A DNA stretch of 64,000 nt from Hydrolagus colliei (taxonomy: Eukaryota), in assembly GCA_035084275.1 (NCBI GenBank), contig CM068748.1, forward strand, positions 11,966,001 through 12,030,000, read 5' to 3'. The position numbers and the translations under genes were made by a program. The notes below the pieces were generated by a model. It had not been told where the DNA came from, did not search any database, and was given only the letters and a program-made list of their open reading frames with translations. Of the stretch, positions 4,424 to 61,078 are shown one piece after another (position 1 is the stretch's first letter; the number at the start of each line of letters is the position of its first letter).

Positions 4424-4770
4424 GAGCTCCTGTGGCTTAGTGGTTAGAGCACTTGTCTTGTAAGCTGGGGAGACCAAGCTGGGGAGACCTGTGTTCGAAT
4501 CCAGGCAGGTCAGGGCGAAACCTTGGGCAAATTTCCTTACTCCACACACCTAATAATAATCCGTCCAAAAAAAACACAATAATAAAATTGGTCATTTCAA
4601 TCCACGACTGTGTGTGGGACCCTGCTGTGCCCAATTGGCTGCTGCATTTCCCCACAAATATATACAGTCAATTCACTTTACAGTGTACACTTTACACTTC
4701 TGTGAAGCGCTTTGGGACGTTGATAAGATGTGAAAAGCGCTATACCAAAGGCAAGGATTATTATTATTAT
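4424..4770 (+). mobile_element. Full-length tRNA-derived SINE with L2-like tail
   Basis: A box tggcttagtgg, B box gttcgaatcc, tRNA-Thr-like head, CORE-like ccttgggcaa, tail aagcgctttgggacg...gtgaaaagcgctata and (TAT)n; internal 14-bp tandem duplication. Confidence 0.9.
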
Positions 4771-4861: not shown

Positions 4862-5074
4862 CTCATGCGTTTACGTTAATGGGATTGTCAGCCATAACTT
4901 CAGTGTCTGCTCAAATCTCCATTAAAGGGATTGTCTGCCATGGACTCAGGCGGTGATCACACGTCTCTTAAAGGGATTGTCTGCCACGGTCACCAGCTCA
5001 GCGCTCACATGGTTCTGTTAAAGAGGTTGGCTCTCATTCTGTTCACATGTTTGTGTTAAAAGGATTGTCTCGCA
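4862..5074 (+). repeat. Degenerate minisatellite, 5 units of about 38-50 bp
   Basis: Core ttaaagggattgtctgcca (or variant) starts at 4876, 4922, 4968, 5018 and 5056. Confidence 0.8.
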
Positions 5075-5177
5075 AAGCTTTGGGCTTTGTGTTGTGTATT
5101 TCCCCCTCACGTGCTAATTGTTTTCTTTTCATTTTTCTTTCCCATGCTTTCTCCCTGTCTCGTGTGCTGACTGGCAG

Positions 5178-5186
5178 GAGGTGGAG
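5178..5186 (+). CDS. SPOCK2: SPOCK2 9-nt microexon encoding EVE (phase 0-0)
   Basis: ctggcag|GAG GTG GAG|gttagt, preceded by a long pyrimidine tract and a gctaat branch-point candidate. EVE is the tripeptide between WNRFRD and DDYI in testican-2. Confidence 0.88.
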
Positions 5187-5631
5187 GTTAGTGGGAGTTT
5201 TTCTTTGGTATTTGATAATTTTATGAATACTGTATTCTAATGGTGCATGATTCCAGATTTTAAAAAAAATTCTATGCACTTCATAAAAACAACCTCATCT
5301 TGTACAGACCTGCTTCTAAATCCCTTTTGTTCATTTTTGCCCTTGTCTGTTCATCAGCTGTGTGGGAGTGAGTGGTGAAAGCAGTCCATGGTGCCAGTCA
5401 AACCCACACAGTTGATTGATGAAAGTGAACTGACTTCACACTTTTACATAGCTACCTCTCAGTAACTGAAGGGTACTGTATTGGAATCTATTTTTCATTT
5501 TAATTGAAACTATTTTGAGAAATGCTCTGAACTTAAACACAATTGTGGAGGACTACAGTTGAAACCAGTATCAAATCCTTTTGCAGTTAAAGGTAATGAC
5601 AGTACTTAAGTCTTTTTCCACTGTTTGAGTC

Positions 5632-5835
5632 ATAATAATCCTTGCATTTGATTTGATATAGTGCTTTTTAGACGTCTCAAAGTGCTTCACTGAATATACT
5701 GTAAAGTGAATTGACTGTAAATTCATTTTGAGGGTTTATTATCAGGCATCTATAGTAAGGAAAGTTACCCAAGCTTTTGCCCTGCCTGGAATCGAACTTG
5801 CAAGGCAAGTGATCCAACCACTGAGCTACAAGACA
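5632..5835 (-). mobile_element. tRNA-derived SINE, internally deleted copy
   Basis: Reverse complement shows a tagctcagtgg head, cttgggtaactttccttac and the same tail as the 4424 copy. Confidence 0.8.
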
Positions 5836-8800
5836 TGTACCCATATTTATAATGGCAGTAAACATTCAGTTCAGTAGAAATTAAAAAATTGTACATATTC
5901 CCACTTCTTTGTAAATTACCCCTTGTTACTAGGGTAGGTTTAGGATCCAAGTCAAAGATAATAATAATAATCCTTGCATTTGATATAGCACCTATAAGTT
6001 GTATGTAAACCAGCATTACAAAATATTTATTTAAAGTTTAGTGGCGAAACGCATCGCTGTGTATAACAGGAGGCTTAAGGTTTCAGTTTGCAAAACAAAA
6101 GACTGCAGGTTTGAATCCCAGTCAGCGCAAAGTTAGCTGGTAACTTTGGGATGTCCTCTCGATGTGAAAGGCACTATACAAATGTAATTTTGTTGTTGTA
6201 GTAGTGGTAGAGAGCACGCATAGTCAGAGGAACGACTAGTTATGTAAGTAAGATTTAGAAGAGGAATACATTTACTGAACAGAGGTCACTAGATCACAGA
6301 TTAGAGGTGACTGAGGTGAGTCCAGGAATGCTGCTGGAGTTGAGATGTTGCTCACACAAGGCAAATCTCCACAGGCAAAGTCCCTGATCAAAGGCTAACA
6401 GCACCTCCTCCATCTGCTCCCATCCCAGCAGAGTGAAAATTGGAAGGAAAATCACATTCAGCTACACCTCTTACAGCTACACCTCTTACAGAGTTTAAAC
6501 TAATGCTGCAGGAAGGCGTACAAAATGTAATTCATAGGGTAAATTCATTGGGTTGAGCATTTCTTACGTAAACACAAGAGTTATGTTTACCAGCGTTTTA
6601 AGCAAATTTGGAGCAAATATTAGAACTGGCCTTTCTCAATGCAGTCCCTTCCTATCCTGATTTTCAGAGCGTTCCAGTGGACAGTGCACTCGGACTGTCA
6701 AACAGCCTATTGAGCCTGAGCCACACATTACCCACCTCCTGGCAGGGACTCAGTGGCAAATTAACTGAGGCTACATCCTGCTGGTGAACTTCACCACCGT
6801 ACCTGCCCTGGTTACCAGTGGCAGTCACAGCGCTCATTCCAGGTAGCTAAACAGGTGGCACTGCTAGCGGTGAGATCAATGGCATTATGTGGCATCCTCA
6901 TTGATGTCACAAGCTGGAATTGACATAAAAGCAAAATTTGTCCTATTGCAATATATATGCAACTGATTCACAAACAGGACAAACCTAAAATGCTAATTAT
7001 TCCAATTATTAATAGTTCCTGTTGACATCTTGATGCCATGGTTTACAGATCAACTTCCTAAGGAAGGCTGTACTGTATCTGATCTGGGGCTCGGAGGTCA
7101 GAGTAGCTTTTACAATTAGCTTCATGTTAATGATGTGCCAAGAGCTGCATCAAAATTAAAGGATGACAGAGGGTGGCGATAAGCATGTTTGGATAGGCAT
7201 TGCTAAAATAAACACCCTGACTTGGTAGGGGGAAATGTTACAGATTTTCAGAAGAGATGAATGGTGAGATGTGTTTGAACTCATAAATGGGGTATTATTC
7301 AGGGGAGTTTTTCCCGGGGTATTTCTTCAAGGCATTAATCAGGAGTGCACACAATTCACGATTGATGATATTATCAGATCCGCCCGATTGAATTACCTCC
7401 TTGTACTTCACTGTTGGCCATCAATTAGTCTCTCTGTGGTGTTCATGGCTTCTCCAAGCACAAGCACACTGATCAATAAACACACTTTTCAGATGAGCTG
7501 CTTTTAGCCCGGGGGTCCATTAAGGAAAAAGAACGACACTAAGCCAATTACGGCACTAAATTTCCCAGGAGCAGACTCCACAATAACAAAAGCAGTATAA
7601 TATCGACCACACTTATCTCTTAATACCAAACTACACCAATTATCTTGCCTAATGGCAGACTATATTTTTCTAGAAATATGAATTGCTCCTACACTTTGCA
7701 TATTCGTGAACCACTGCTCTCTTTAAAAATCTCTTTACTGCACTAACTTGTGCCAGTTAATTTGGAAATATACATTTACTGTTATACTTTGCTTTGCCCC
7801 AGAAGCAAAAGGCCACTTCTATCACATTAAGACGGCCCTTTGGCATACTTTATCAGTCAGTACATTTCCCATTATTACCCTGTGGAACCTCTTAGAACTA
7901 TTGTTCCCATTACTAAACAGTAACACAAGTTAGCTGGCCTATCAGGAGGTCATTTGTGGTGCAATGCAGCTACACTTAATGCACATTTCTGGCTAAATTT
8001 AGTGACCTTGGGATTGTCCTGCTGGGTAGCCATTGCTGCGATAAACACAACAGAAAGAAGAATAAGGCTCTTCTTTTTAAAGAAGTACAATTGATGGGAT
8101 CAAATACAGAAAATGCTGGAAATGGACACAAAAGGTTGATCGGCATCTGAAAGAGAAAGCTGTGCAAATATTTTGGGTGTGACCCTTCATGAGAACTAAC
8201 TTTCAGACTCTGATGAGGTGCTGCGCATTGCTTGCCTTCATTAGTATTTTCCGCCAGTAAAATAACTGAAGATAGCATCTGTGAGAATAGTTAAGTGGGA
8301 GCAATAAATCCCTCAACTCACATCCTTGTGCTGTCATAGTCAATATAAGTATCATTTTATATGCAGTATTCATGCCAGTTAGCACTTAAATTAAGAAAAC
8401 AAACAGATAAAAATTAGATTGAATCAGTTATCTGCAGCAGAATGGTCGGGAGCTTCACATCACTGCAGAGTGTGGGAATGAAGGAGATTTATGAATATCT
8501 GCTAGAGGAAACTAATTTTACATAAAAAGAATTGTAAAAGATAAATTCTCTTTATTATGTGATTAGAATGTGGTTACACAGGATCTCAGGGAGTAAACAA
8601 TCTTATCTCATGGCTCAACAGAAGCAGAGACAGGATTCTGGAACCTGAGCTCTGCAATCAAACCAGCCTATTGGATCTACCTCACCCATTTCACAAAGAG
8701 TAGACCTTGAAGCAGAAACCATGATTAGGGAGATAGACGGAGGCACAATAAATAGCACAAGCAGCAAACCAATTACGGGATAAATACTGTAAGGGAATGG

Positions 8801-9612: not shown

Positions 9613-9993
9613 AGAAGCAAACACACACATACAGTCCAGCCAATGATTGTTGATATAGACAATTGTTATTAGCTCACCTCTAAACTTTTACATTTATAGA
9701 GCACCTTTCACGTTGGGATAACGCCCCAAAGACGTCCATGCTACACTTTTGGGTGACAGTTACCTCATATTGACCTCTCTCAGCGCTAAACTGTATTTCT
9801 AACAGCCTTAAAAGATTGTTCCTTTAGGAAAAGTAATGTATAGCAAGGAGCAACAGTCTCTTCATGATGTCGATAATCACCTTGTAATTTGCATGGGGGA
9901 AAATGTTGTGCTCCATTGCAAATCTGTCTGAAGAATATACAAGTTTCAGTTGTCAGTGCAACTGAATATATTTTATTGGTAATGTTGTAACAT

Positions 9994-10530
9994 TAGCTGG
10001 AGTACTGTATCCAATTCTGGTCACCACACTATAGAAAGGATGTTAAGGCATTGGAAAGGGTGCAAAGAAGGTTTACTAGAATGGTACCAGGATTGAGGGA
10101 CTTCAGTTATGAGGAAAGGCTAGATAGGCTAGGTTTATTCTCTTTAGAACAGAGAAGGTTGAGAGGCTCATAAAATCATGAGGGGATTCCGACAGGGTGA
10201 ATAAGGAAAAACTGTTTCCACTGGTGGGCGAATCTGTAACTCGTGGTCACAGATTTAAAATCGTTTCAAAACGAAGCAGAGGGGAGCTCAGGAGAAATTG
10301 TTTCACTCAGCGGGTTGTTCAAATCTGGAATGCATTACCTGAAAAGGTGGTGGAGGCCGATTCGATGACAGCTTTTAAAAAAGAATTAGATCTTTATTTA
10401 GGGAGAACAGGTCTGTTAGGTTATGGGGAGAGAGCTGAGCAGTGCGATTGAGTTGCTCTTTTCAAAGAACTGGCACAGACTAGATGGGCCGAATGGCTTC
10501 CTTTTGTCCCGTAAAATTCTATGATTCTAT
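9994..10530 (+). mobile_element. CR1 LINE 3' fragment (ORF2 C-terminus and 3'UTR)
   Basis: [29 protein letters not shown]...TRGHRFK...FTQRVVQIWNALP; (ATTCTATG)n tail. Confidence 0.93.
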
Positions 10531-10599
10531 GTCGAGGTGACATTTATGGTTTAATCTGATCTGCCTCTAAATCTAACACAACACTTCACAGTAACATGG

Positions 10600-10925
10600 A
10601 ATCCCTCGCCTCACAAGTGACCCGTGTTTGATTCCCAGGCGAAGCAAGTTTCCTTACTCCAAATGCCTCTAGTTACCCATCATTAAGTAGAAACCCAGGT
10701 GTTAGTCGATTGGCAGATTGCTTTCTGGAGGTAATAATCCCTCCCAAATGAAATAAAAAATGATTTACTCAATCCATGACTGTGTGTGGGCCAAGGCTCT
10801 GTCCAAATGGTTGTCACATTTTGCTCAGAAAATACAGTCAATCCACTTTACAGCATATTCTGTGAAGCACTTTGATGCGGCTGAGACAGCTCAATAATGT
10901 GATAGGACATTATAGTAATGCAAGC
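10600..10925 (+). mobile_element. tRNA-derived SINE, longer variant
   Basis: ctcgcctcacaagtga head remnant, caagtttccttactcc, shared tail. Its extra middle segment also occurs in the minus copy at 20405-20680. Confidence 0.75.
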
Positions 10926-11146
10926 TTTGTTTACAACATCATGTACTCAAAAAATATCATAACAAGGGTGGGAAGTGCTAATTAGAGCCCCCCGAATGAT
11001 CCGTGTGGTCAGATTGAGGTTGACAGTTATCAGTGTCCCTGAGATGGAATAGAAAGAATGAGACCTGGTTCCTGATTCTAATTTATCTCAACTAACCTCT
11101 GGTGGAAAGTAAATGTGTGACCCTCATAGGCTAAGCTTGCATATAA

Positions 11147-11298
11147 AAAATTGGATAGGTACTTGAAAAAGAAAATACTGCAAGGATATGGGGAAAGAGC
11201 GGGCGAATGGGACTGATTGGGTAGCTCTTCCAAAGATCTGGCATTGACACTATGATCCAAATGGCGTCCTTCTATGCTGTTATATTCTATGATTCTAT
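11147..11298 (+). mobile_element. CR1 LINE 3' end
   Basis: ggatatggggaaagagcggg...aatggcgtccttct and (ATTCTATG)n tail. Confidence 0.85.
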
Positions 11299-11629
11299 AA
11301 TAGATTTCAATTGAGTGCAGCTTAATTTTATACACAGAAGACACTCGCTGTTTACAATGCAAAATAACATATGTACTGTGAGGGCAAACTATTTCAGTCA
11401 CAGTGAGACACTGCTTGTATTTCTATAAAGGGAAGGTGACAATCCTCTGCCCTCTTCAAATCAGTGCTGCTTTAGATTACATTGTTGTGATAAAATTGAG
11501 AAGGCAAAAACACTGTTTAAAACAAAGCAGTGTTTTCAGGAGTGAATGTAAAATACGTTTGTGTGCATATGTTTCTTGTGTTTGTAATATTCTTCTCAGT
11601 TCTTAGATCATCCTTATTCTCTTGTGCAG

Positions 11630-11675
11630 GATGATTACATCCGAAGCTGGGATCAGAAGCAGTCTTTTGATGAAG
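11630..11675 (+). CDS. SPOCK2: SPOCK2 exon, DDYIRSWDQKQSFDE(G), 46 nt
   Basis: tgtgcag|GATGATTACATC...GATGAAG|gtgagt. Resembles human DDYIKSWEDNQQGDE; the phase-1 end fits the next exon. Confidence 0.92.
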
Positions 11676-21562: not shown

Positions 21563-21677
21563 GTCTTGACCCCACCAAGGACCCCTGCCAGAAGGTGAAG
21601 TGCAGCCGACACAAGGTGTGCATCTCACAGGGCCCACAGAGAGCCATGTGTATCAGTCGCAAGAAGCTGCAGCACAG
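21563..21677 (+). CDS. SPOCK2: SPOCK2 exon, follistatin-N region (G)LDPTKDPCQKVKCSRHKVCISQGPQRAMCISRKKLQH(R)
   Basis: ccgcag| ... CACAG|gttaga, 115 nt. Near-identical to testican-2 KDPCQKVKCSRHKVC. Confidence 0.96.
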
Positions 21678-21828
21678 GTTAGAGCTGCGTTTCCTTCACA
21701 CCATTCTCTACATTCCAGTAGAGTGCCTCTTATGTGTGCTTGAGCTGGAGGGAAGTTTGGGAGATCCCTGAGACGGAACACATAGTTCAGTGAATGCATT
21801 GCTTACTGCTAATTCATGTTTGTTTTAG

Positions 21829-21943
21829 AATCAAACAGTCTTCCCCGAAACCCCAGGGGCACGTGGAGAGTGTGTGCAAGCCATGCCACATGACGCAGAC
21901 TTCCCCAGTGTGTGGCTCAGACGGAAACACATACACATCACAG
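21829..21943 (+). CDS. SPOCK2: SPOCK2 exon, start of Kazal domain IKQSSPKPQGHVESVCKPCHMTQTSPVCGSDGNTYTSQ
   Basis: ttttag| ... CAG|gtaggc, 115 nt. Kazal PVCGSDGxTY motif. Confidence 0.96.
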
Positions 21944-22920
21944 GTAGGCAATGTGCTCAGTTCTTCAAACCGAATGTTCCTGTACTTTAATGGAGTAGGA
22001 TTCCAACATTTAACATCAAAAAGTTGAAATCCCAACAATGACAACAACAATAAAATTACATTTAAGGTAGGAGGGATTGAAGGATGGAATTCCAAAGGTT
22101 ACGGCAGAGTGGCTGAAGGTTCACTTGCTGATGGTGGGGTGGTTGAGTCAGGGGACATGGAGCAGGCCGGAGCCCACTGAGTGGAGAGAATGGACTGGTT
22201 GGAAGGGGGTTAGGAGGTTGCAGAAGTAGGGTAGCAAATACAAACCGTGTAATTCAAGCACCCAAATTTAGAGGATTTAAATATCAGACTTTCAATAATT
22301 TTCCATTAGATTTAATTAGAAGCAGAACAGCTGACTAATAACTTGCTGGGTCCAGGCTCTCAAAAGCCCCAGTGTTGTCCAGATAATTGTTGGACATTAC
22401 TGTCTGGTCATAGCCACACATGAAAATAATACTGCAAAAAACACTGGCATTTCATATTGTGCCTTGTGTTGAAACGTCTTAAGGTGCTTCACAAGTGAAG
22501 CGCATCAGACCTGCTGACAGTCTTCAATGAGCTTGTGATGATGGATCCGAGGATGCAAGAGCCAATAAAAGTTGTGTTGTTAAGGAATTATCTCCTAAAG
22601 ACGTTAGGCTTTGCAAAACTATAGTTTGTGTGAATTCATCCGCCTTTCAATGTGTCACATAAACAACTAATAATGCCACAAATCTTTGGAAACTTTGCTG
22701 CTGTGGAAGCAGTACTTATTGCCACCTGCATTCGATGAAGAACTTTTTTTGAAAATAAGTAAACTATAAATGCGGTGTTCAGCTCACCAGCTGAGAACCT
22801 TATCGACACATCGACAACTTTATGTCAAACACTCCTTCTTGATGGAATAAGCTGATCTGGCTGAATGCAAATCAATTCACGTCTAACCTCAGCTCTCTCT
22901 TTTTCCCCTTCTTCCTGCAG

Positions 22921-23035
22921 TGTAAACTGGAGCAGCAGATATGTTTGACTGGAAAACAGCTTACCCAACAGTGCCAAGGCCAGTGTCCATGTCCAACACG
23001 ACTTGCACCAACAGTCGAAACAGAGAAGAAACCAG
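22921..23035 (+). CDS. SPOCK2: SPOCK2 exon, end of Kazal domain CKLEQQICLTGKQLTQQCQGQCPCPTRLAPTVETEKKP
   Basis: Long pyrimidine tract cttcctgcag| ... CCAG|gtaaat, 115 nt. CKLEQQxCL...CxGxCPCP. Not in the + ORF track. Confidence 0.95.
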
Positions 23036-23392
23036 GTAAATAATTTATACCGTCTGAAAGACAAGGTGAGGTCCCAGAGCATAGTCAGTGGAGAGGAGAT
23101 CAGGTTAGTTCCTACAAACATTCTGAATGTGATCTGGCACCTTTCATGACCAGGTTTTAGCAATATCCACTTGACAACTCCCCAATGATCTGATAGAGGT
23201 ATGGGTCTCACCATGGGCAGGATCTCATCATAGTCCTGTGGCGCAGGATGTTAACCAATATTCTTATAAAACCCAATTTGAATATAATTAGGGCAGATCA
23301 GGTTGAGTTTAAACATTTATACTTGTGTATAATTTTTATGGACTATATCAAACAGTCCATTACTGCAAAATCTCTCTCTTTTCTCTCTCTAG

Positions 23393-23512
23393 AAAGCTGT
23401 ACAGGGCAAGACCTCGCAGATCTTGGGGATCGGCTCAGAGACTGGTTTCAACTGCTGCATGAAAATGCCAAACAGAACAATTCAGGGAGTCCATTTTCAA
23501 GCACAACCAGTG
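23393..23512 (+). CDS. SPOCK2: SPOCK2 exon, start of SPARC/EC domain (E)SCTGQDLADLGDRLRDWFQLLHENAKQNNSGSPFSSTTS
   Basis: ctctag| ... AGTG|gtaaga, 120 nt. CTGQDLADLGDRLRDWFQLLHEN favours SPOCK2 over SPOCK1 and SPOCK3. Confidence 0.96.
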
Positions 23513-23877
23513 GTAAGACAAGAAAAGTCACCAGGTTCACAGGCAGATAAACTTGTTTGAGTCTTTCAGGAAATATTTTACTGCAGGATCATTCCACACA
23601 GGATCAAAGAACTTATTGTAATCTTGGAGTGACAACACAGACTTTATAGTCCATTGTTACCAACTCCCAAGTTGGGAGGGGTGGAGGGGAGGGGAAGAGA
23701 ATCTTTCAGTACTTATCTTCTTGTAACCTTTGTGGATTTCAAAAACCTAATTAGATTTCCCCTCTTAATCTTCTCTGTTCCAACCAAAACAATTTTTTTG
23801 GCGTGGGAAAGTGATGGGTTAGTTAGCTCCAGATTGTGAATTCACTTCCTCACAATGTCCTTCTCTCTTTCTGAAAG

Positions 23878-24096
23878 TGCTGGACAAGAGCCTGATGGCC
23901 AGCTGCAGGGATTCGATTGGCTGGATGTTTTCCAGGCTGGATAGCAATACTGACCTGTTTCTGGATCAGACGGAGCTGGCAGCCATCAATCTGGACAAGT
24001 ATGAAGTCTGTGTGCGACCTTTCTTCAACTCCTGCGACACATACAGAGATGGACGGGTTTCCACGGCCGAGTGGTGCTTCTGTTTCTGGAGAGAAA
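23878..24096 (+). CDS. SPOCK2: SPOCK2 exon, EF-hand pair of the extracellular calcium-binding domain
   Basis: ctgaaag| ... GAAA|gtacgt, 219 nt. SCRDSIGWMFSRLD...DKYEVCVRPFFNSCDTYRDGRVSTAEWCFCFWRE. Confidence 0.96.
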
Positions 24097-25117
24097 GTAC
24101 GTAAGAGAACAGCAGGAGTGTATATGTGTCCTGTGTGTGTGTGTGTGTTTGTTGTATCAAGGCAACAAGTGAGAGTAAGAGGGAGACAAAATCAGAGAGA
24201 CAGATTGAAAGGCTGAGTGTGTTATGAAGGGAAATGTGCTTGGTGGCAAGTACATGAGAGAGGTACTACATGTTTACTGGAGAAGAGAGGAGATAAGGTG
24301 TTAAGGGGAAGAGAGGCTATGTCTGTTTGGAGGTCTGTGAGCTTTCACTGCCCAGCCTCATGCATGAAAACTGTCCCATTAAACAAGCGCAGTTAGTATA
24401 CAATATAATTTACATGTATATTGCGCCTTTCATGTCAGGAGGACGTTCAAGCATTTAGCTATATTGGCTGGGCACCCGAGCTGGTAGTGGGAGCGAGGAG
24501 GGTGGGGAGGGAGTAACAGTGGAATAATAATCCACCTTAGGGAGGATAAACAATGGTGAGAAGGGAGTACCAATTGTTAATGCGAAATATAAGTCTCAAT
24601 TGATGGAAACTGTAAACTGGATCTTACAATTCCTATTGTGTCCAGTTTTAGACCAGAGCCTCTAGTTACTGACACCAGTGAATTAATGCCTGGTGCTACA
24701 GCGACAAATACATGACAGAGTGATCTGTGAGTTTGTGCCTACAATTCACTGCCTGGTGAAATGCCAACGCTGCCCCATAGCGGGGAGCTGCTGACTACGG
24801 GCCAGAGAAAAAGAAATCTTGAGAGCACTGTCCACCCTTTCAGCTGGGAATAGTGGTATATGTATATGTTTGTCATAGAAATAATCAGAAAGAGGAAAGG
24901 TAGCAAAAAATACAAATGTTTTAACGGCAGCAAAGAGTAATGGAGCTTTATGGTGATATGGGAAAGTTTGCAGAAATTTTCAGCAGGCTTTTAACCAACT
25001 GAATAGTCAGGGGAAGGGCAAAGAGTAGGAAGATAATGATTGAATAGGCTTTTGTTGTTGCTTGCTTTGTTGTTTGTGATATCACAGATTAATTTGCATT
25101 GACGTACATTGAAATAT

Positions 25118-25326
25118 TGTAAGCATTGCCTGAAATGGTGGAGGCGAATTCGATAAAAACTTTTAAAAGAGAGGTAGACATTTATTTGGGGAGGACACGT
25201 TTGCGAGGTTATGGGGAGAGAGCTGGGGAGTGGGATTAAATTACTCTTTTTAAAGAGCCGGCAAGGACTCGATGGGCCGAATGATCTCCTTTTGTGCCGT
25301 AAGATCCTATGATTCTATGATTCTAA
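25118..25326 (+). mobile_element. CR1 LINE 3' end, followed by a SINE tail (25345-25485)
   Basis: gatgggccgaatgatctcct...(ATTCTATG)n; closely similar to the 9994 and 3286 copies. Confidence 0.88.
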
Positions 25327-25572
25327 CCTAATGCACTTGTTTAATAACTGTGCGCAATTGGCTGCCGCGTTTCACCCATAAAATATACAGTCAATTCACT
25401 TTACAGTATATTCTGTGAAGCGCTTTGAGATGTCGATAAGACACGAAAAGCTCTATATCAAATGCAACAATTATTATTACTAGTATTATAAACTGAGTAG
25501 TTGTATTGTAAAACTTGGGCTTCTCAAGTGTTAATCTTTCAGTCTGTTATAATGCTATTCCTGCTCTCACAG

Positions 25573-25635
25573 AGCCACCCTGCCTGGCTGAGCTGGAGAG
25601 GATTCAGTTGCAAGAAGCAGCATGGAAGGTACCTG
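25573..25635 (+). CDS. SPOCK2: SPOCK2 exon, start of thyroglobulin type-1 domain (K)PPCLAELERIQLQEAAWKVP(G)
   Basis: ctcacag| ... CCTG|gtgagt, 63 nt, phase 1-1. Confidence 0.95.
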
Positions 25636-25811
25636 GTGAGTACAGTCCCCAACCTCAACAGTATTTTTCCACACTAATAGTGACTTTATGTCTCCCGGCG
25701 AGTGCTTATGTCACAGAAATAGGCTGATCTGAATGAAACCTGCTGTGTAAATAGGCAGATGAGGAACATCTTGTCCCAGCTTTGGACAATATTTAAGAAA
25801 ATCTAATATGT

Positions 25812-25955
25812 ACAACAACAAAATTACATTTATAGAGCGCCTTTCACGTCGGGAGGACGTCCCAAGGCGCTGAACAGTCAGGTCGGGACCCGGGCAAGGG
25901 AGAGGGGGTAGGGTAGGGGAGAGGAGAGGAGTGGGAGAGATTTAGGAGGGGAGGG
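25812..25955 (-). mobile_element. L2 LINE 3' end
   Basis: acaacaacaaaattacatttatagagcgcctttcacgtcgggaggacgtcccaaggcgctg with CpGs intact, suggesting a young copy. Confidence 0.85.
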
Positions 25956-26099
25956 AGAGAGTTACCACACGATATTCCTCCCTGATCAGTTCAGGGAGAG
26001 CCCTTAACAAATACTCTAACAATGCTCCCATTTAAAAGGCTTTGAGAAGGATTCTGGATTAAGTACTCGGAAATATTCCTTCCCCATGTTTCCCCAATG

Positions 26100-26390
26100 T
26101 TGAGACTTTGAGCTCATAGTCAGCTAACACTCCAATGCACTGCTCAGGTGTCCTGCATTATCAGAGGCGCTATTCTGTGACTGAATCTGCAAACTGGTGT
26201 CCCATCTGTCCATCCCAGATGGACGTTACATATTCCATGGTGCCTTTGAAAGGGGAAGGGTATTTCATCCCTGGCCAATAATCCTCCAGATGAATTGCTT
26301 ATTCATCTGTTTGTGGGACCATTATTGTGCGCAAAGTGGTTTGGGTTTGGAAAGTGCCCAGACATCAATGCAGGTTGTGTGAGGTTCGAC
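26100..26390 (+). mobile_element. Deu-domain SINE relic
   Basis: gactttgagctcatagtcagctaacactccaatgca...gatggacgttacatattccatgg...cctggccaata...ctgtttgtggga. Confidence 0.7.
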
Positions 26391-28144
26391 TGTTAATAAT
26401 TTGCATTAGGATAACTGGTTATTTGCAGATTCAGATGTTTAAACTCCCAGTAAATTGAGACATAGATTAGAACAATTCTATAGTTTATCTCTACTACCCG
26501 CTCGCAAACCTCAAGAGATAATCCATAAGAAGTGATGACTGTTTAACTTGTTGGCCTCAAACGTGTCCCTACGACTGCCTCACAAGAGTCATAAAGCAAT
26601 GCCAGTTTACTTTTGTTTAAACACATACAATTACATCAAGCAACGAAGACCCCAGATTAAACAACATAAAAATGCTGCCTTTGCAAACCCAAACCGAATG
26701 GGGTTTCAATATATGGGATGGCAGAACAGGGTGGGTGGGGGATTAAGATCAAGATATCAGTTCTGGAGTGAGATTTCAGTGCCTGATAAATCATTGAAAT
26801 TCAATTAATATTTAGTCACATTACAAAATAGAGAAGCAAGTATCAAAATATATTTTAATTTTTAAAACAGATTTGGGGTGTCCTGTTGATTATACACTTC
26901 AGACATATCTAGATTCCATATTCGCAGTGAAATCTGTTTAGGAAGATGGCCCAGTTGGCGCTGTGCATTCACCCACTGTGCTTTGCAGTTGGTAAGACAC
27001 AAGCAGTTACATATTTACTCCAATCCATGCTCTTCACAGTTAACCCCTCTCCCAAACCTTTGAAAGCCTAGAGGCAAGTTCCTGCCTTGACTGCCTGCTA
27101 TTCTTCAGAGAACTATGCTTGGCACTAGTGGAAGGTCTTAGAATAAATGGGGGAAAAACATTTTTAAAAAGACTTTAAAAAATGGTTGGGTGTTAAGAGA
27201 AGATTTATAGCACACGCTGAAGCCCTGTACAAATACATTAGAAGTTAGTCATTTGTGGAGCAACTTTTATTCATGTTTACCCAAAGACTTGTGCCTCCTG
27301 CTGTGAACAAAGATGTTACTTTAACACTTTACTGACCTGCCTATGTGCTTCAGACAATGGGGTCGTGGGAGTGAAGGGAATACAGGATAGCAGCTAATAT
27401 GCAATTTAAATTAACCAGTTCCTAAGTAATGAAATTGAATTAACTGGAAATGCCAGAGGTGGATTTATTACGCAATGTCAATGGCATTCATTCAATTTCC
27501 ACCTTACCATTGCAGGATTCATAACACATGTTGCAACTTGACGATCTACATATAACCTATTCCACTCCTTTTTCTCAATTAATAATAATGATAAAACCTC
27601 AAATATTCGACAGCATCAGCTGTTGGGATAACAAATATTCCTTATAATAATCCTTGCATTTAATGTAGCATTGTATCATGTTGAAGTTGACACTCAGAAA
27701 TACATACAACTAACTCACAACAACTGTTGTGAAATAGACCCAAGGCAAATCCTGCTACCAGAGGTAGTTCCAAATAAGTGATATTACACACCATGCACAC
27801 GCACATGTAAGCAGACACGTACACATTGGATACCATTCACTTAATGAAACTGCACTTGCCAAACAGTTCTTTGAGACGGGTTGGTTACTGTCTCCTCCTA
27901 TACCCACTCCCCATAACACAAACCATTCACTTGCTAAAGAGAAACCCACATGATTTGGTCCCCAACAATATGCATTATTCCTTATTCTGCTGCCTCGATA
28001 TATCGGGAAGAATTGTTCTAGGTTTACTTTCTCCGTGAGCATCTTAAATGCCTATAATTAAGATCCTTACTGAGACAACTCTTTTCCAGGTTGAAGATAC
28101 TTCTATGAGGTCTTCTACATGTAAGCCAGTGATCTCTTTTGCAG

Positions 28145-28282
28145 GCACTTACATTCCCAGCTGTGATGAAGATGGATATTATAGGAAACTGCAATGTGAT
28201 CCCTATTCTACCGAGTGCTGGTGTGTCGATCAGCATGGCAGTGAGGTGACTGGAACACGCACACGAGGGAATCCTGATTGCG
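28145..28282 (+). CDS. SPOCK2: SPOCK2 exon, thyroglobulin type-1 domain with CWCV motif
   Basis: ttttgcag| ... TGCG|gtaact, 138 nt. YIPSCDEDGYYRKLQC...CWCVDQHGSEVTGTRTRGNPDC. Confidence 0.96.
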
Positions 28283-28299
28283 GTAACTATTACTTTATA

Positions 28300-28545
28300 C
28301 ATCAGAATATACAACACAGAAACAGGCCATTTGGCCCAACCGGTATACGTCAGTGTTTATGCTCCACATGAGCCTCCTCCTACCCTTCCTCAACTAAGGC
28401 TACAATAATAATTATATCATTATTATCATTATTAAGCCTACAAGCCTTCTATTCCTTTCTCCCTCATGTACCTATCTAGATTCTCCTTAAGTACATCTAT
28501 GCTAGTTGCCTCAACAACTCCTTGTAATAGTAAGTTCCACATTCC
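28300..28545 (-). mobile_element. CR1 LINE 3' fragment, second subfamily
   Basis: Reverse complement reads ggaatgtggaacttact...gttgaggcaactagcatagatg...gttgggccaaatggcctgtttctgtgttgta. Confidence 0.8.
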
Positions 28546-29030
28546 TTTGGGTTAAAATTTTAAATTCAGCAGACAACATAAGAAAATGTTAAACACTGAG
28601 TCATGTCCTGCTTACTGGGCTGTATGACAAGCACACTAGTCGTAAACTGAATGGCAACCTGAAGTTTGTTTAACAAGGAAAGCATAGATTTCAGGAAGAT
28701 TGGCTACTTCAAATGAGCATGCGTTTTCTGCCACCTTTGGTGTTGTACTATACGACACAACAGGTCACATCAGTGATTCAATGAAATTCTGCAGAAGACA
28801 AGAAGCACATCACTCCTTTCCTTATTTTGTTCTTGTCGTTGGTTCCTCTTGTCCTCTGCTTGCCTTTTCTTGCTTGCCTTTCTGCCTCCTCTTCTTCATC
28901 TCTTCCTATCCTGTTTCACATCCTACCTTTCTCTGCACCCCGAATGTTATACTTCTCACTCTTCCCGGTAGCCATAATCCTCGATCTTGTTGCTGTAGGT
29001 TTGAACGTGTTTTTCTCCTCCTGTTTACAG

Positions 29031-29176
29031 ACGATGTGATAAGTTTTTCTGGTGACTTTGGCAGTGGGGTCGGCTGGGAGGATGAAGAAGAGAAAGAGAC
29101 AGAAGAGAACATTGAAGAGATAGAGGAGGACGAGGGGGAAATGGGGGAGGCTGATGACGGAGGCTACATCTGGTAG
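29031..29176 (+). CDS. SPOCK2: SPOCK2 last coding exon: glycosaminoglycan-attachment SG sites and acidic tail, stop TAG
   Basis: gtttacag|...FSGDFGSGVGWEDEEEKETEE...EADDGGYIW*, the testican-2 C-terminus. Confidence 0.96.
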
Positions 29177-51710: not shown

Positions 51711-51910
51711 NNNNNNNNNNNNNNNNNNNNNNNNNNNNNNNNNNNNNNNNNNNNNNNNNNNNNNNNNNNNNNNNNNNNNNNNNNNNNNNNNNNNNNNNNN
51801 NNNNNNNNNNNNNNNNNNNNNNNNNNNNNNNNNNNNNNNNNNNNNNNNNNNNNNNNNNNNNNNNNNNNNNNNNNNNNNNNNNNNNNNNNNNNNNNNNNNN
51901 NNNNNNNNNN
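51711..51910. other. Assembly gap (200 N)
   Basis: Run of n immediately upstream of the DDIT4 core promoter; true size unknown. Confidence 1.
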
Positions 51911-52925: not shown

Positions 52926-53412
52926 GTTATGAGAGCCTGGATTTCCCTCAGTGAGCAAGGCTCCATTGTAGACGACCCCTTCGAGGATCTCCTGTGCGCT
53001 GATGTGATGCAGCTGATCGAGCAGAGCCTGATGGAGGCCAAACGCGGCTCCCTTCGCTGCTTGAAGCTGCTCATCCCCGACCAGCTCACCGCTCACGTCG
53101 CCGAGGATCTGCTGCGCTTGGCGTCCAGCGAGCCCTGCGGCCTCAGGGGAGCTGTCATCGATCTGAACGTGGAGGACGACAAGCTGTTCAAGAACGTGGA
53201 CCGGTTCGCGGTGGACCACACCCTGTCGCCCACTTTCGAGCTCACCCTGGTGCTGAGGTTGGAAGCTGGGCTCTGGCCCAAGATCCAAGATCTCTTCACT
53301 TCGGGCCCTTCTTTCACACCGGGTTTAGCAAGCACTTCGACTGAGCCCGGGGTTCAGAATCATTAAGAGAAAATTGTACAGCCCCACAGAGCTGGTCATC
53401 GAGCAATGCTGA
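52926..53412 (+). CDS. DDIT4: DDIT4 last exon (RTP801_C domain), frameshifted near 53325 as assembled
   Basis: ttggcag| then LLRLASSEPCGLRGA...PTFELTLVLRLEAGLWPKIQDLF. The conserved tail LRLSPGFRIIKRKLYSPTELVIEQC* (TGA 53410-53412) is in another frame. LWPKIQ and linkage to SPOCK2 favour DDIT4 over DDIT4L. Confidence 0.9.
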
Positions 53413-59535: not shown

Positions 59536-59664
59536 TACTGTTTCAAATCGTTCACAAGAAGATTTGAAACCCGTAAACGTGGGCGTCGAAATCAATGGCC
59601 ACAGGCTATGCCCTCGTAACCAAAGTCCAACCGCGGACACAGAGTAGATGTTTCATCGCTGTAC

Positions 59665-60890
59665 CTGTTGGAGTCAGGGTATATTTTCACTCTCACAGCT
59701 GATTCCCCATTTAACACATGTCTGCAGGTGAGGATCAGTTTGGGGCTGATCAACACCCCTGACCCCCAAACTCTTCCGCTCTCCAGCAGGGCCACTGTGC
59801 TCAGCAACTGAGTTAACCCGTGCCTCCCCGGAGGTACGGCCAGACGCTCGGGCAGAGTCAGGAACGACAAGGTCCTCTCGCCTCCGCAGTCCAATTCCTT
59901 CAAGAACCTCGCGATGTTCTTGACGAGGGAGTGCACCGAGCAGACCAAAGTCAAGCCGATCCACTCGTCGGCTTTCCAGCAGAGGGGGGCCACGATCAGG
60001 CCGGCCAGGTAATACAGACCTCGCCACTTGACGTAGACCCCGCCGCCTTCGGTGCCGGGCAGGCAGCGGGCGTCGGTCAATATCATGGCGTCGTCCTCCC
60101 CCGCGAGATTGCTGACGATCCCTTTGCTGAAAGTGTTCATGAAAACGGGGCAAGAGAGAGAGGCGAACGGCGAGGCGCAAGCCAACAGGGGCTGGCCTTT
60201 CCGCAAGGACGTGCTCTTAACGCACCGCGGAACGTCTCCTCCTCCATCTCCTCCTCCTCCTCCATCGTCCCAACCCGGGCACCGCAACACACCGAACCAA
60301 ACCAAATCGCGGCTGTGGTCTTCAGGTTGCCTCTCCTCCTCCTGGCTGTAGAAATGCCACTGGTCTGACCTGCTGAACAGAGTTTGGAAGATCCGCCTGA
60401 ATTCCGGGCAGCTGCACAGCAGCAGGATCCGGGCCCGGCTGTGGGGGGGGGGGGGGTCTGTCAAGGACACACGAGGCTTGGACACCGAGCCGAGGATCTC
60501 ACCGCGGTCCCGGTCGCCGCCGCTCACCGGGAGAGCCCGTTGGGGTCGGGGATCGTTCCCGGAGAACCGGACCCGAATCTGCAGATCCCGGTGGAAAGCC
60601 CCGGCGAGCAGGAGCCTCCGGCCGCTCAGATCCCGGTCCGGCTGCCGGAGGAAAGGCAGGAAGATCAGTCCGTGACACAGGACGATCCCGCGCCCGCGGT
60701 CCGCGATCAGCCCGCTGCAGCTCCACACTCCCTCCCGGTCACAGCCGCCCGGAGCCCGGCCGGGAGAGGAGGAGGAGGAGGAGGAGGAGGGGGGGGGGGG
60801 ACACACGGGGCTGGCGGGATCCTCAGTCACATCTCCCGCTCGCTGCACACAGGCGGACACCACACAGCCCCAGTCACCGGGAGAAATCAT
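59665..60890 (-). CDS. TYSND1: TYSND1 exon 1 (peroxisomal leader peptide-processing protease), 1226 nt, CpG island
   Basis: ATG at 60890 (MISPGDWGCVVSA, cf. human GCMVSA). Contains WSCSG, GIVLCHG, LTDARCLPGTEGGGV, APLCWKADEWIG, VWGSGV and catalytic His in LTCRHV; donor AG|gtacag. Confidence 0.93.
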
Positions 60891-61002
60891 CGGGAAAAGA
60901 GCTGGAAACAGCGAGAGAAACACATCATTATTGTTATCATTATTATTGTTGTTGTTGTGTGTGTGTGGACACAGCGAGTGCAATGGTCTGTGTTTCTCTA
61001 AC

Positions 61003-61010
61003 CCGGAAGT
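61003..61010. promoter_or_regulatory. ETS/GABP-type site in the TYSND1 promoter
   Basis: CCGGAAGT about 115 bp upstream of the ATG at the CpG-island edge, typical of housekeeping promoters. Confidence 0.5.
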
Positions 61011-61078
61011 AATGAATTGTTTCATCACTTAACCAGATCATAAAATCAGTTCAGCAGTCGCTTTGAATCAATTGGAAT

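What the first reader, a model, noticed from the sequence alone, without database searches (positions are those of the whole stretch)
5110..5250. 9-nt EVE microexon of SPOCK2 with a full neural-microexon splicing code
Seen: cag|GAGGTGGAG|gttagt at 5178-5186, a branch candidate gctaat (about 5113), a pyrimidine tract displaced from the AG, TGC between the tract and the AG (5165-5167) and TGCATG 58 nt downstream (5244-5249). Established: testicans carry an EVE mini-exon; UGC near the 3' splice site is the SRRM4/nSR100 signature; downstream UGCAUG is an RBFOX enhancer. Inference: this neural switch is conserved in cartilaginous fish. Automated annotation could easily miss it.
Basis: partly seen in the sequence, partly recalled or inferred. 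Interest (0 to 1): 0.7.

Follow-up and report, generated by a model that had tools for sequence, protein, structure and literature searches.

The report
SPOCK2 nine-base EVE microexon, chimaera ortholog
This is a real nine-base exon adding three amino acids (EVE) to the brain matrix protein SPOCK2 in a chimaera-like fish; it is likely switched on mainly in neurons, as in zebrafish, but it is an already catalogued vertebrate microexon, so the finding is ordinary.

Summary
Observation confirmed: every motif lies at the stated coordinates. The host gene is SPOCK2/testican-2 of a holocephalan (11 exons, 419 aa, 397/419 identical to Callorhinchus milii). The upstream exon ends at Asp then GT, so EVE is not encoded there. 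A high-depth contig from a related species joins upstream exon, microexon and the 11630 exon, so inclusion is shown in a relative. The acceptor has the SRRM3/4-type layout (98-nt AG-free zone, distant pyrimidine tract, UCUC then UGC at -13). It is the only such candidate among 245 in the 20.6-kb interval, and a paralog repeats the layout and the downstream UGCAUG. The exon is already known: C. milii RefSeq includes EVE, four cartilaginous fishes have database isoform pairs differing only by EVE, and the zebrafish ortholog is a published neural, srrm3/4-dependent microexon (dPSI +72 neural, -46 in mutants). However, the human ortholog is listed as not neurally regulated (dPSI 0.05), so the switch is not conserved across all vertebrates. 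Tissue regulation and RBFOX control in this fish were not tested. Low novelty.

The parts
5078..5175 (+). 98-nt AG-exclusion zone upstream of the microexon acceptor
   Evidence: 98 nt vs 13-43 nt at the gene's nine other in-window acceptors; 97 nt at the paralog's microexon
5113..5118 (+). candidate branch point (A at 5117, -61); predicted, not mapped
   Evidence: no substitution listed in the relative's contig, whereas the rival words CTCAC (5106-5110) and CTGAC (5167-5171) are changed there
5119..5161 (+). pyrimidine tract displaced from the AG, with two UCUC words (5150-5153, 5158-5161)
   Evidence: best 20-nt window 19/20 pyrimidine at -54; only 59% pyrimidine at -20..-4
5165..5167 (+). 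UGC at -13, predicted SRRM3/4-responsive element
   Evidence: no substitution listed in the relative; paralog has UGC at -15 and -11
5175..5177 (+). 3' splice site CAG (tandem NAGNAG with the exon's first GAG)
   Evidence: the spliced contig keeps GAG, so the proximal acceptor is used
5178..5186 (+). 9-nt phase-0 microexon encoding Glu-Val-Glu (residues 59-61 of the 419-aa precursor)
5187..5192 (+). 5' splice site GTTAGT
   Evidence: 7 of 9 on a crude consensus score
5244..5249 (+). UGCAUG at +58, candidate RBFOX enhancer; function untested
   Evidence: the paralog's microexon has one at +72; none within 200 nt after the nine other in-window exons
11630..11675 (+). next coding exon, 46 nt, begins DDY
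21563..29176 (+). remaining eight SPOCK2 coding exons (21563-21677, 21829-21943, 22921-23035, 23393-23512, 23878-24096, 25573-25635, 28145-28282, 29031-29176); the first coding exon lies upstream of the window at G000:C15:11956858-11957031
   Evidence: one open frame of 419 aa plus stop

Best explanation
The 9 bases at 5178-5186 are a frame-preserving cassette microexon of SPOCK2 (testican-2) that inserts Glu-Val-Glu into N-terminal domain I, and it is likely skipped by default and included mainly in neurons through SRRM3/4. Shown: the exon, its phase, its motifs, and inclusion in a spliced contig of a related species. Inferred mechanism: the tiny exon and the weak acceptor (branch point and pyrimidine tract 20-60 nt away from the AG) make it poorly recognised; SRRM3/4 acting at the UCUC...UGC element would rescue early spliceosome assembly in neurons; RBFOX on the downstream UGCAUG would add enhancement. 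The protein effect is predicted to be fine tuning: two more acidic residues in the testican-specific domain I.
For: Upstream exon ends GAC|gtgagt. Run X1 contig (245 nt, depth 2512, against 21 for the intron contig) reads upstream exon end + GAG + six letters aligned at 11624-11629 + the 11630 exon. Layout unique in the intron and absent from background. 2 listed substitutions in 5111-5194 vs a 9.7% intron rate in the relative (P=0.01, window chosen afterwards, gaps not counted). A paralog on C1 has the same 9-nt EVE exon with a 97-nt AG-free zone, UGC and UGCAUG. EVE-only isoform pairs in 4 cartilaginous fishes and 8 other anamniotes. Zebrafish spock2 DreEX0074881: 9 nt, neural dPSI 71.62, srrm3/4-mutant dPSI -46.1 (PMC12626424 supplement rows). 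Mouse Spock1 9-nt exon drops 16 points in nSR100 knockouts (PMC4387716 supplement row). SRRM_C and Fox-1_C genes are present in this genome.
Against: Human ortholog HsaEX0061496 shows no neural enrichment (dPSI 0.05, NO_REG), so orthology does not guarantee the regulation. No skipped junction was seen in any laid run (contigs drop variants, so this is not absence), and the tissue of X1 is unknown. Database models without EVE may be annotation misses. The inclusion evidence comes from a relative about 90% alike in introns, not from this species; the single mismatched letter at 11627 is inferred, not printed. UGC is neither necessary nor specific (74-79% of regulated microexons; 22% of background candidates; one constitutive exon of this gene also has UGC at -20 and -11). 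Nothing here tests RBFOX.
Confidence: 0.72

Rival explanations
1. The exon is real but near-constitutive in this fish, as the human SPOCK2 ortholog appears to be; the SRRM-type motifs are retained but do not make a tissue switch.
For: Human NO_REG, dPSI 0.05; only the included form was seen in X1; the current C. milii RefSeq model is a single EVE-containing one.
Against: EVE-only isoform pairs in C. milii (older annotation), Carcharodon, Scyliorhinus canicula and Chiloscyllium plagiosum, and in lungfish, caecilian and Xenopus tropicalis; zebrafish ortholog strongly regulated; long AG-free zone shared with the paralog.
Confidence: 0.17
2. The exon is alternatively spliced and neural-biased, but driven mainly by other factors (RBFOX, or relief of PTBP1 repression on the U/C-rich tract), with SRRM3/4 minor.
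For: UGCAUG is kept downstream in both paralogs; zebrafish loss is partial (-46 of +72); mouse Spock1 effect is only -16; PTBP1 binds the same element (bioRxiv 2024.09.17.613571 passage).
Against: Both zebrafish paralogous exons fall strongly in srrm3/4 mutants (-46, -68); the UGC position fits the published layout.
Confidence: 0.09
3. A chance intronic look-alike; EVE in the mRNA comes from another place.
For: The bare pattern is at chance level genome-wide; the contig junction does not by itself name the genomic source of the 9 letters.
Against: It is the only AG-EVE-GT between the two flanking exons; EVE is not at the end of the upstream exon, and the downstream acceptor reads differently; expected 0.03 per such interval; local conservation and a paralogous copy.
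Confidence: 0.02

Closest known systems
Zebrafish spock2 microexon DreEX0074881 (PMC12626424, supplement rows)
   Same: Orthologous gene, 9 nt; zebrafish database proteins differ only by EVE at the same junction (P0043/P0106)
   Different: Zebrafish regulation is measured (neural +71.6, srrm3/4 mutant -46.1); here it is inferred. The downstream intron is about 0.36 kb there and 6.4 kb here.
Human SPOCK2 exon HsaEX0061496
   Same: Listed ortholog of the zebrafish exon; the human protein carries EVE at the same junction
   Different: Classed as not neurally regulated (dPSI 0.05)
SPOCK1 and SPOCK3 9-nt microexons (MmuEX0044774, DreEX0074887, HsaEX0061500)
   Same: Paralogous genes with 9-nt microexons; zebrafish spock3 and mouse Spock1 respond to loss of SRRM3/4; human SPOCK3 exon absent in pancreatic stellate cells (PMC5122892 passage)
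   Different: Different paralogs; the zebrafish spock3 event lists a tandem acceptor giving 9 or 6 nt, not seen here
Callorhinchus milii testican-2 (XP_042192674.1, V9KM17)
   Same: 397/419 identical to V9KM17; EVE already present in both database proteins
   Different: Another species; no tissue data seen

Membership tests
SPOCK2/testican-2 orthologs | Kazal/follistatin, SPARC calcium-binding and thyroglobulin domains, testican N- and C-terminal domains, best hits named testican-2 | tested here: met
   6 of 6 hits to the first exon are named testican-2; two further testican loci lie elsewhere in the genome; a DDIT4-type gene lies downstream (human synteny recalled). No tree was built.
SRRM3/4-dependent neural microexons | 3-27 nt, frame-preserving exon that is spliced into mRNA | tested here: met
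   9 nt, phase 0-0; spliced contig in a related species
SRRM3/4-dependent neural microexons | Strong pyrimidine tract and branch point set far from the AG | tested here: met
   AG-free zone 98 nt, tract 19/20 at -54, branch word at -61; feature as described in bioRxiv 2024.09.17.613571. Branch point predicted only.
SRRM3/4-dependent neural microexons | UCUC ... UGC enhancer between branch point and AG | tested here: met
   UCUC at -28 and -20, UGC at -13
SRRM3/4-dependent neural microexons | Strong 5' splice site | tested here: inconclusive
   GAG|GTTAGT, 7 of 9 on a crude count; no MaxEnt scoring available
SRRM3/4-dependent neural microexons | Skipped isoform exists | tested here: inconclusive
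   Database EVE-only pairs in 4 cartilaginous fishes; no skipped junction seen in the runs laid
SRRM3/4-dependent neural microexons | Neural-enriched inclusion (dPSI at least 15) | not testable with these tools
   No tissue-labelled reads; zebrafish ortholog yes, human ortholog no
SRRM3/4-dependent neural microexons | Inclusion falls on loss of SRRM3/4 or rises on its expression | not testable with these tools
   Regulator domain present at G000:C28:6448655; zebrafish ortholog -46.1
RBFOX-enhanced exons | UGCAUG in the proximal downstream intron, conserved | tested here: inconclusive
   Present at +58, and at +72 in the paralog; its state in the relative was not visible because the table stops at 5242
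RBFOX-enhanced exons | RBFOX binding and dependence | not testable with these tools
   Three Fox-1_C loci exist in the genome; no binding or knockdown data seen

The most novel reading that the evidence does not exclude
The EVE microexon is a neural switch for tyrosine sulfation of testicans, older than the split of jawed vertebrates. Inclusion turns the context of the conserved DDY tyrosine from 4 acidic/2 basic to 5 acidic/1 basic residues (94 of 94 skipped vs 98 of 99 included proteins), which crosses the classical sulfation rule (recalled), and so retunes domain I binding. The switch was ancestral for SPOCK2, became fixed 'on' in the human lineage and may have been lost in rays and skates (0 of 9 readable batoid models carry EVE).
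Probability: 0.12. Interest if true: 0.6.

Novelty: already known. Interest (0 to 1): 0.15.

Why it matters
As it stands it is a correct annotation of a known vertebrate microexon in one more species. Its modest value is evolutionary. A holocephalan is the outgroup that can say whether the regulated state (zebrafish) or the unregulated state (human) of this exon is ancestral, and the same layout in a paralog dates the element to before the testican duplications. If the sulfation idea held, it would give a biochemical function to a family of microexons for which I found none in the searches made.

Tried and rejected
Run search: no RNA holder listed for 5000-5400; not used as evidence. First read-lay was swamped by repeats and showed no junction; only the X1 contig's substitutions were used. 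In one search, X5 laid 0 reads, X6 one read starting at or before 11624 with its loose letters not shown, and X2 only an unspliced contig; none counted. Genome-wide pattern search was at chance level and hit neither paralog interval. Third paralog (C19): neither an EVE exon nor the DDY exon was found in 38 kb; a 200-N gap lies in the interval, so no conclusion; one search used wrong exon lengths and one search repeated it correctly. One search's trial translation had a one-base boundary error, and three control exons were off by one; both were fixed. AlphaFold model of the C. milii protein: mean pLDDT 46, residues 12-79 under 50, uninformative for the insert. PDB search: none of the 29 hits covers domain I. 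CTGAC at -8 rejected as branch point (too close to the AG; changed in the relative). Literature: testican+EVE+exon 0 papers, SPOCK2+microexon 0 in main texts, testican-3+mini-exon 0, testican+tyrosine sulfat 9 listed, none on this by title or abstract start. Irimia 2014, Hartmann 2013 and Torres-Mendez 2019 were not held. PMC12626420 supplements had no spock rows (12 of 13 files searched). Earlier scan findings: none.

Full report
Observation. The sequence shows cag|GAGGTGGAG|gttagt at 5175-5192, gctaat at 5113-5118, TGC at 5165-5167 and TGCATG at 5244-5249. The 9-mer occurs once in the window. The window is G000:C15:11966001-12030000.

Gene. The first coding exon lies upstream of the window and ends ...WNRFRD at GAC|gtgagt, so EVE is not encoded there. 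With the microexon, the 46-nt exon at 11630-11675 and eight further exons, the gene reads as one frame of 419 aa, 397/419 identical to Callorhinchus milii testican-2. All 6 hits to the first exon are cartilaginous-fish testican-2, and the C. milii protein has the Kazal, SPARC calcium-binding and thyroglobulin domains. The organism is therefore most likely a holocephalan (inference). The introns around the microexon are 14,146 and 6,443 nt.

Is it spliced? Run X1 comes from a related organism (about 90% alike in introns; 'RNA' is the tool's guess). It holds a 245-nt contig at depth 2512 whose loose end is the end of the upstream exon followed by GAG, and which then aligns from 11624 with one other letter. 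The intron contig at the same place has depth 21. Both contigs end at 11657 and the shared one starts at 11628, which places the differing letter at 11627, exactly where the microexon's last six letters differ from the intron's. That letter is inferred, not printed. No skipped junction appeared, but contigs drop variants and the tissue is unknown. X2, X5 and X6 gave nothing usable.

More than chance? The bare pattern is not: 17 matches against 16 controls genome-wide. The context is. Of 245 in-frame mini-exon candidates between the flanking exons only this one has tract, donor, UGC, branch word and UGCAUG together; 0 of 8,267 background candidates do (filters chosen knowing the target). Its AG-free zone is 98 nt against 13-43 nt at the nine other in-window acceptors; 60 of 6,703 background acceptors reach 90. 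In the relative's intron contig, 2 substitutions are listed in 5111-5194 against a 9.7% background (P=0.01, post hoc, gaps not counted, list copied from the table, which stops at 5242). None falls in the exon, splice sites, UGC or gctaat. A paralog on C1 (probably SPOCK3; name by recalled resemblance only) has an EVE microexon at C1:65025337 with a 97-nt AG-free zone, UGC at -15 and -11 and UGCAUG at +72.

Is it alternative? Of 36 cartilaginous-fish proteins listed (3 further cluster members were not listed), 33 have a readable junction: 8 EVE, 24 none, 1 a different insert. Four species have pairs differing only by EVE. Eight more such pairs occur in ray-finned fishes, lungfish and amphibians; none was seen among the amniote proteins listed, which are a small part of their clusters (at most 15 listed of up to 677). 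These are gene models, and absence of EVE can be an annotation miss.

What is known. PMC12626424 (passages and supplement rows seen) lists zebrafish spock2 DreEX0074881 as a 9-nt neural microexon with dPSI 71.62 neural and -46.1 in srrm3/4 mutants, and its human ortholog HsaEX0061496 as NO_REG with dPSI 0.05; zebrafish spock3 is +85/-68 and human SPOCK3 +63. PMC9303857 (one supplement row; files 13-18 not searched) shows spock3 down in mutant eyes. PMC4387716 (one supplement row; file 6 not searched) shows the mouse Spock1 9-nt exon down 16 points without nSR100. PMC5122892 (passages) describes the 9-bp SPOCK3 microexon, its absence in stellate cells and earlier reports in mouse SPOCKs, and assigns MT-MMP-related roles to domain I. 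bioRxiv 2024.09.17.613571 (passages and one section) gives the layout used for the membership test and notes that UGC is not strictly required; its supplements are closed and might hold SPOCK or elephant-shark rows. PMC4859157 (passages) describes domain I as testican-specific. Irimia 2014, Hartmann 2013 and Torres-Mendez 2019 were not held; I recall that elephant shark data were used in that line of work, so regulation in cartilaginous fish may already be in print.

Mechanism. Shown: exon, phase, motifs, inclusion in a relative, and the presence of SRRM_C and Fox-1_C genes in this genome. Inferred (0.72): default skipping through small size and a displaced tract, with neuronal rescue by SRRM3/4 at UCUC...UGC and possibly help from RBFOX. 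The main rival (0.17) is near-constitutive inclusion as in human. At protein level EVE sits between the basic end of the upstream exon and the DDY motif. It shifts the 10 residues around that tyrosine from 4 acidic/2 basic (94 of 94) to 5 acidic/1 basic (98 of 99; the other has 4/1). By the recalled sulfation rule this could switch tyrosine sulfation on; it is speculation, and one search showed no paper on it by title or abstract start. The structure prediction was too poor to help.

Verdict. A real exon, well spotted, of an already catalogued kind and with catalogued orthologs. The regulatory claim is likely for this fish but untested, and it does not extend to human SPOCK2. Interest 0.15.

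Noticed in passing
window 52928-53410 (+): A DDIT4/RTP801-type exon (Pfam RTP801_C, profile 2-91 of 115) changes frame near 53325-53345; the expected C-terminal residues continue in another frame. Assembly indel or real frameshift.
   Followed up: no
window 59595-61028 (-): Long open frame with a partial Trypsin_2 match at its end; probably the first exon of a trypsin-like serine protease gene (a TYSND1-like identity is a recalled guess).
   Followed up: no
G000:C1:65025337-65025345 (+): EVE microexon of a paralogous testican, only 128 nt upstream of its DDY exon, with the same AG-free zone, UGC and UGCAUG layout.
   Followed up: partly
G000:C19:473390-511716 (-): Third testican paralog: neither the EVE exon nor the DDY exon was found; a 200-N gap at 482701-482900 may hide them.
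   Followed up: partly
proteins P0005, P0006, P0029-P0031, P0034-P0036, P0047: 0 of 9 readable ray and skate testican-2 models carry EVE (2 more unreadable); lineage loss or missing brain data.
   Followed up: no
proteins P0004, P0216: The Scyliorhinus torazame X1 model has a seven-residue insert in place of EVE, likely a mis-modelled acceptor; an Apodemus model has VE only, matching the distal NAGNAG acceptor.
   Followed up: no
window about 4480-4770, 5640-6200, 9960-11230: High-copy interspersed repeats inside the two introns, some with tRNA-like loose ends suggesting SINEs.
   Followed up: no
window 51711-51910: 200-N assembly gap.
   Followed up: no
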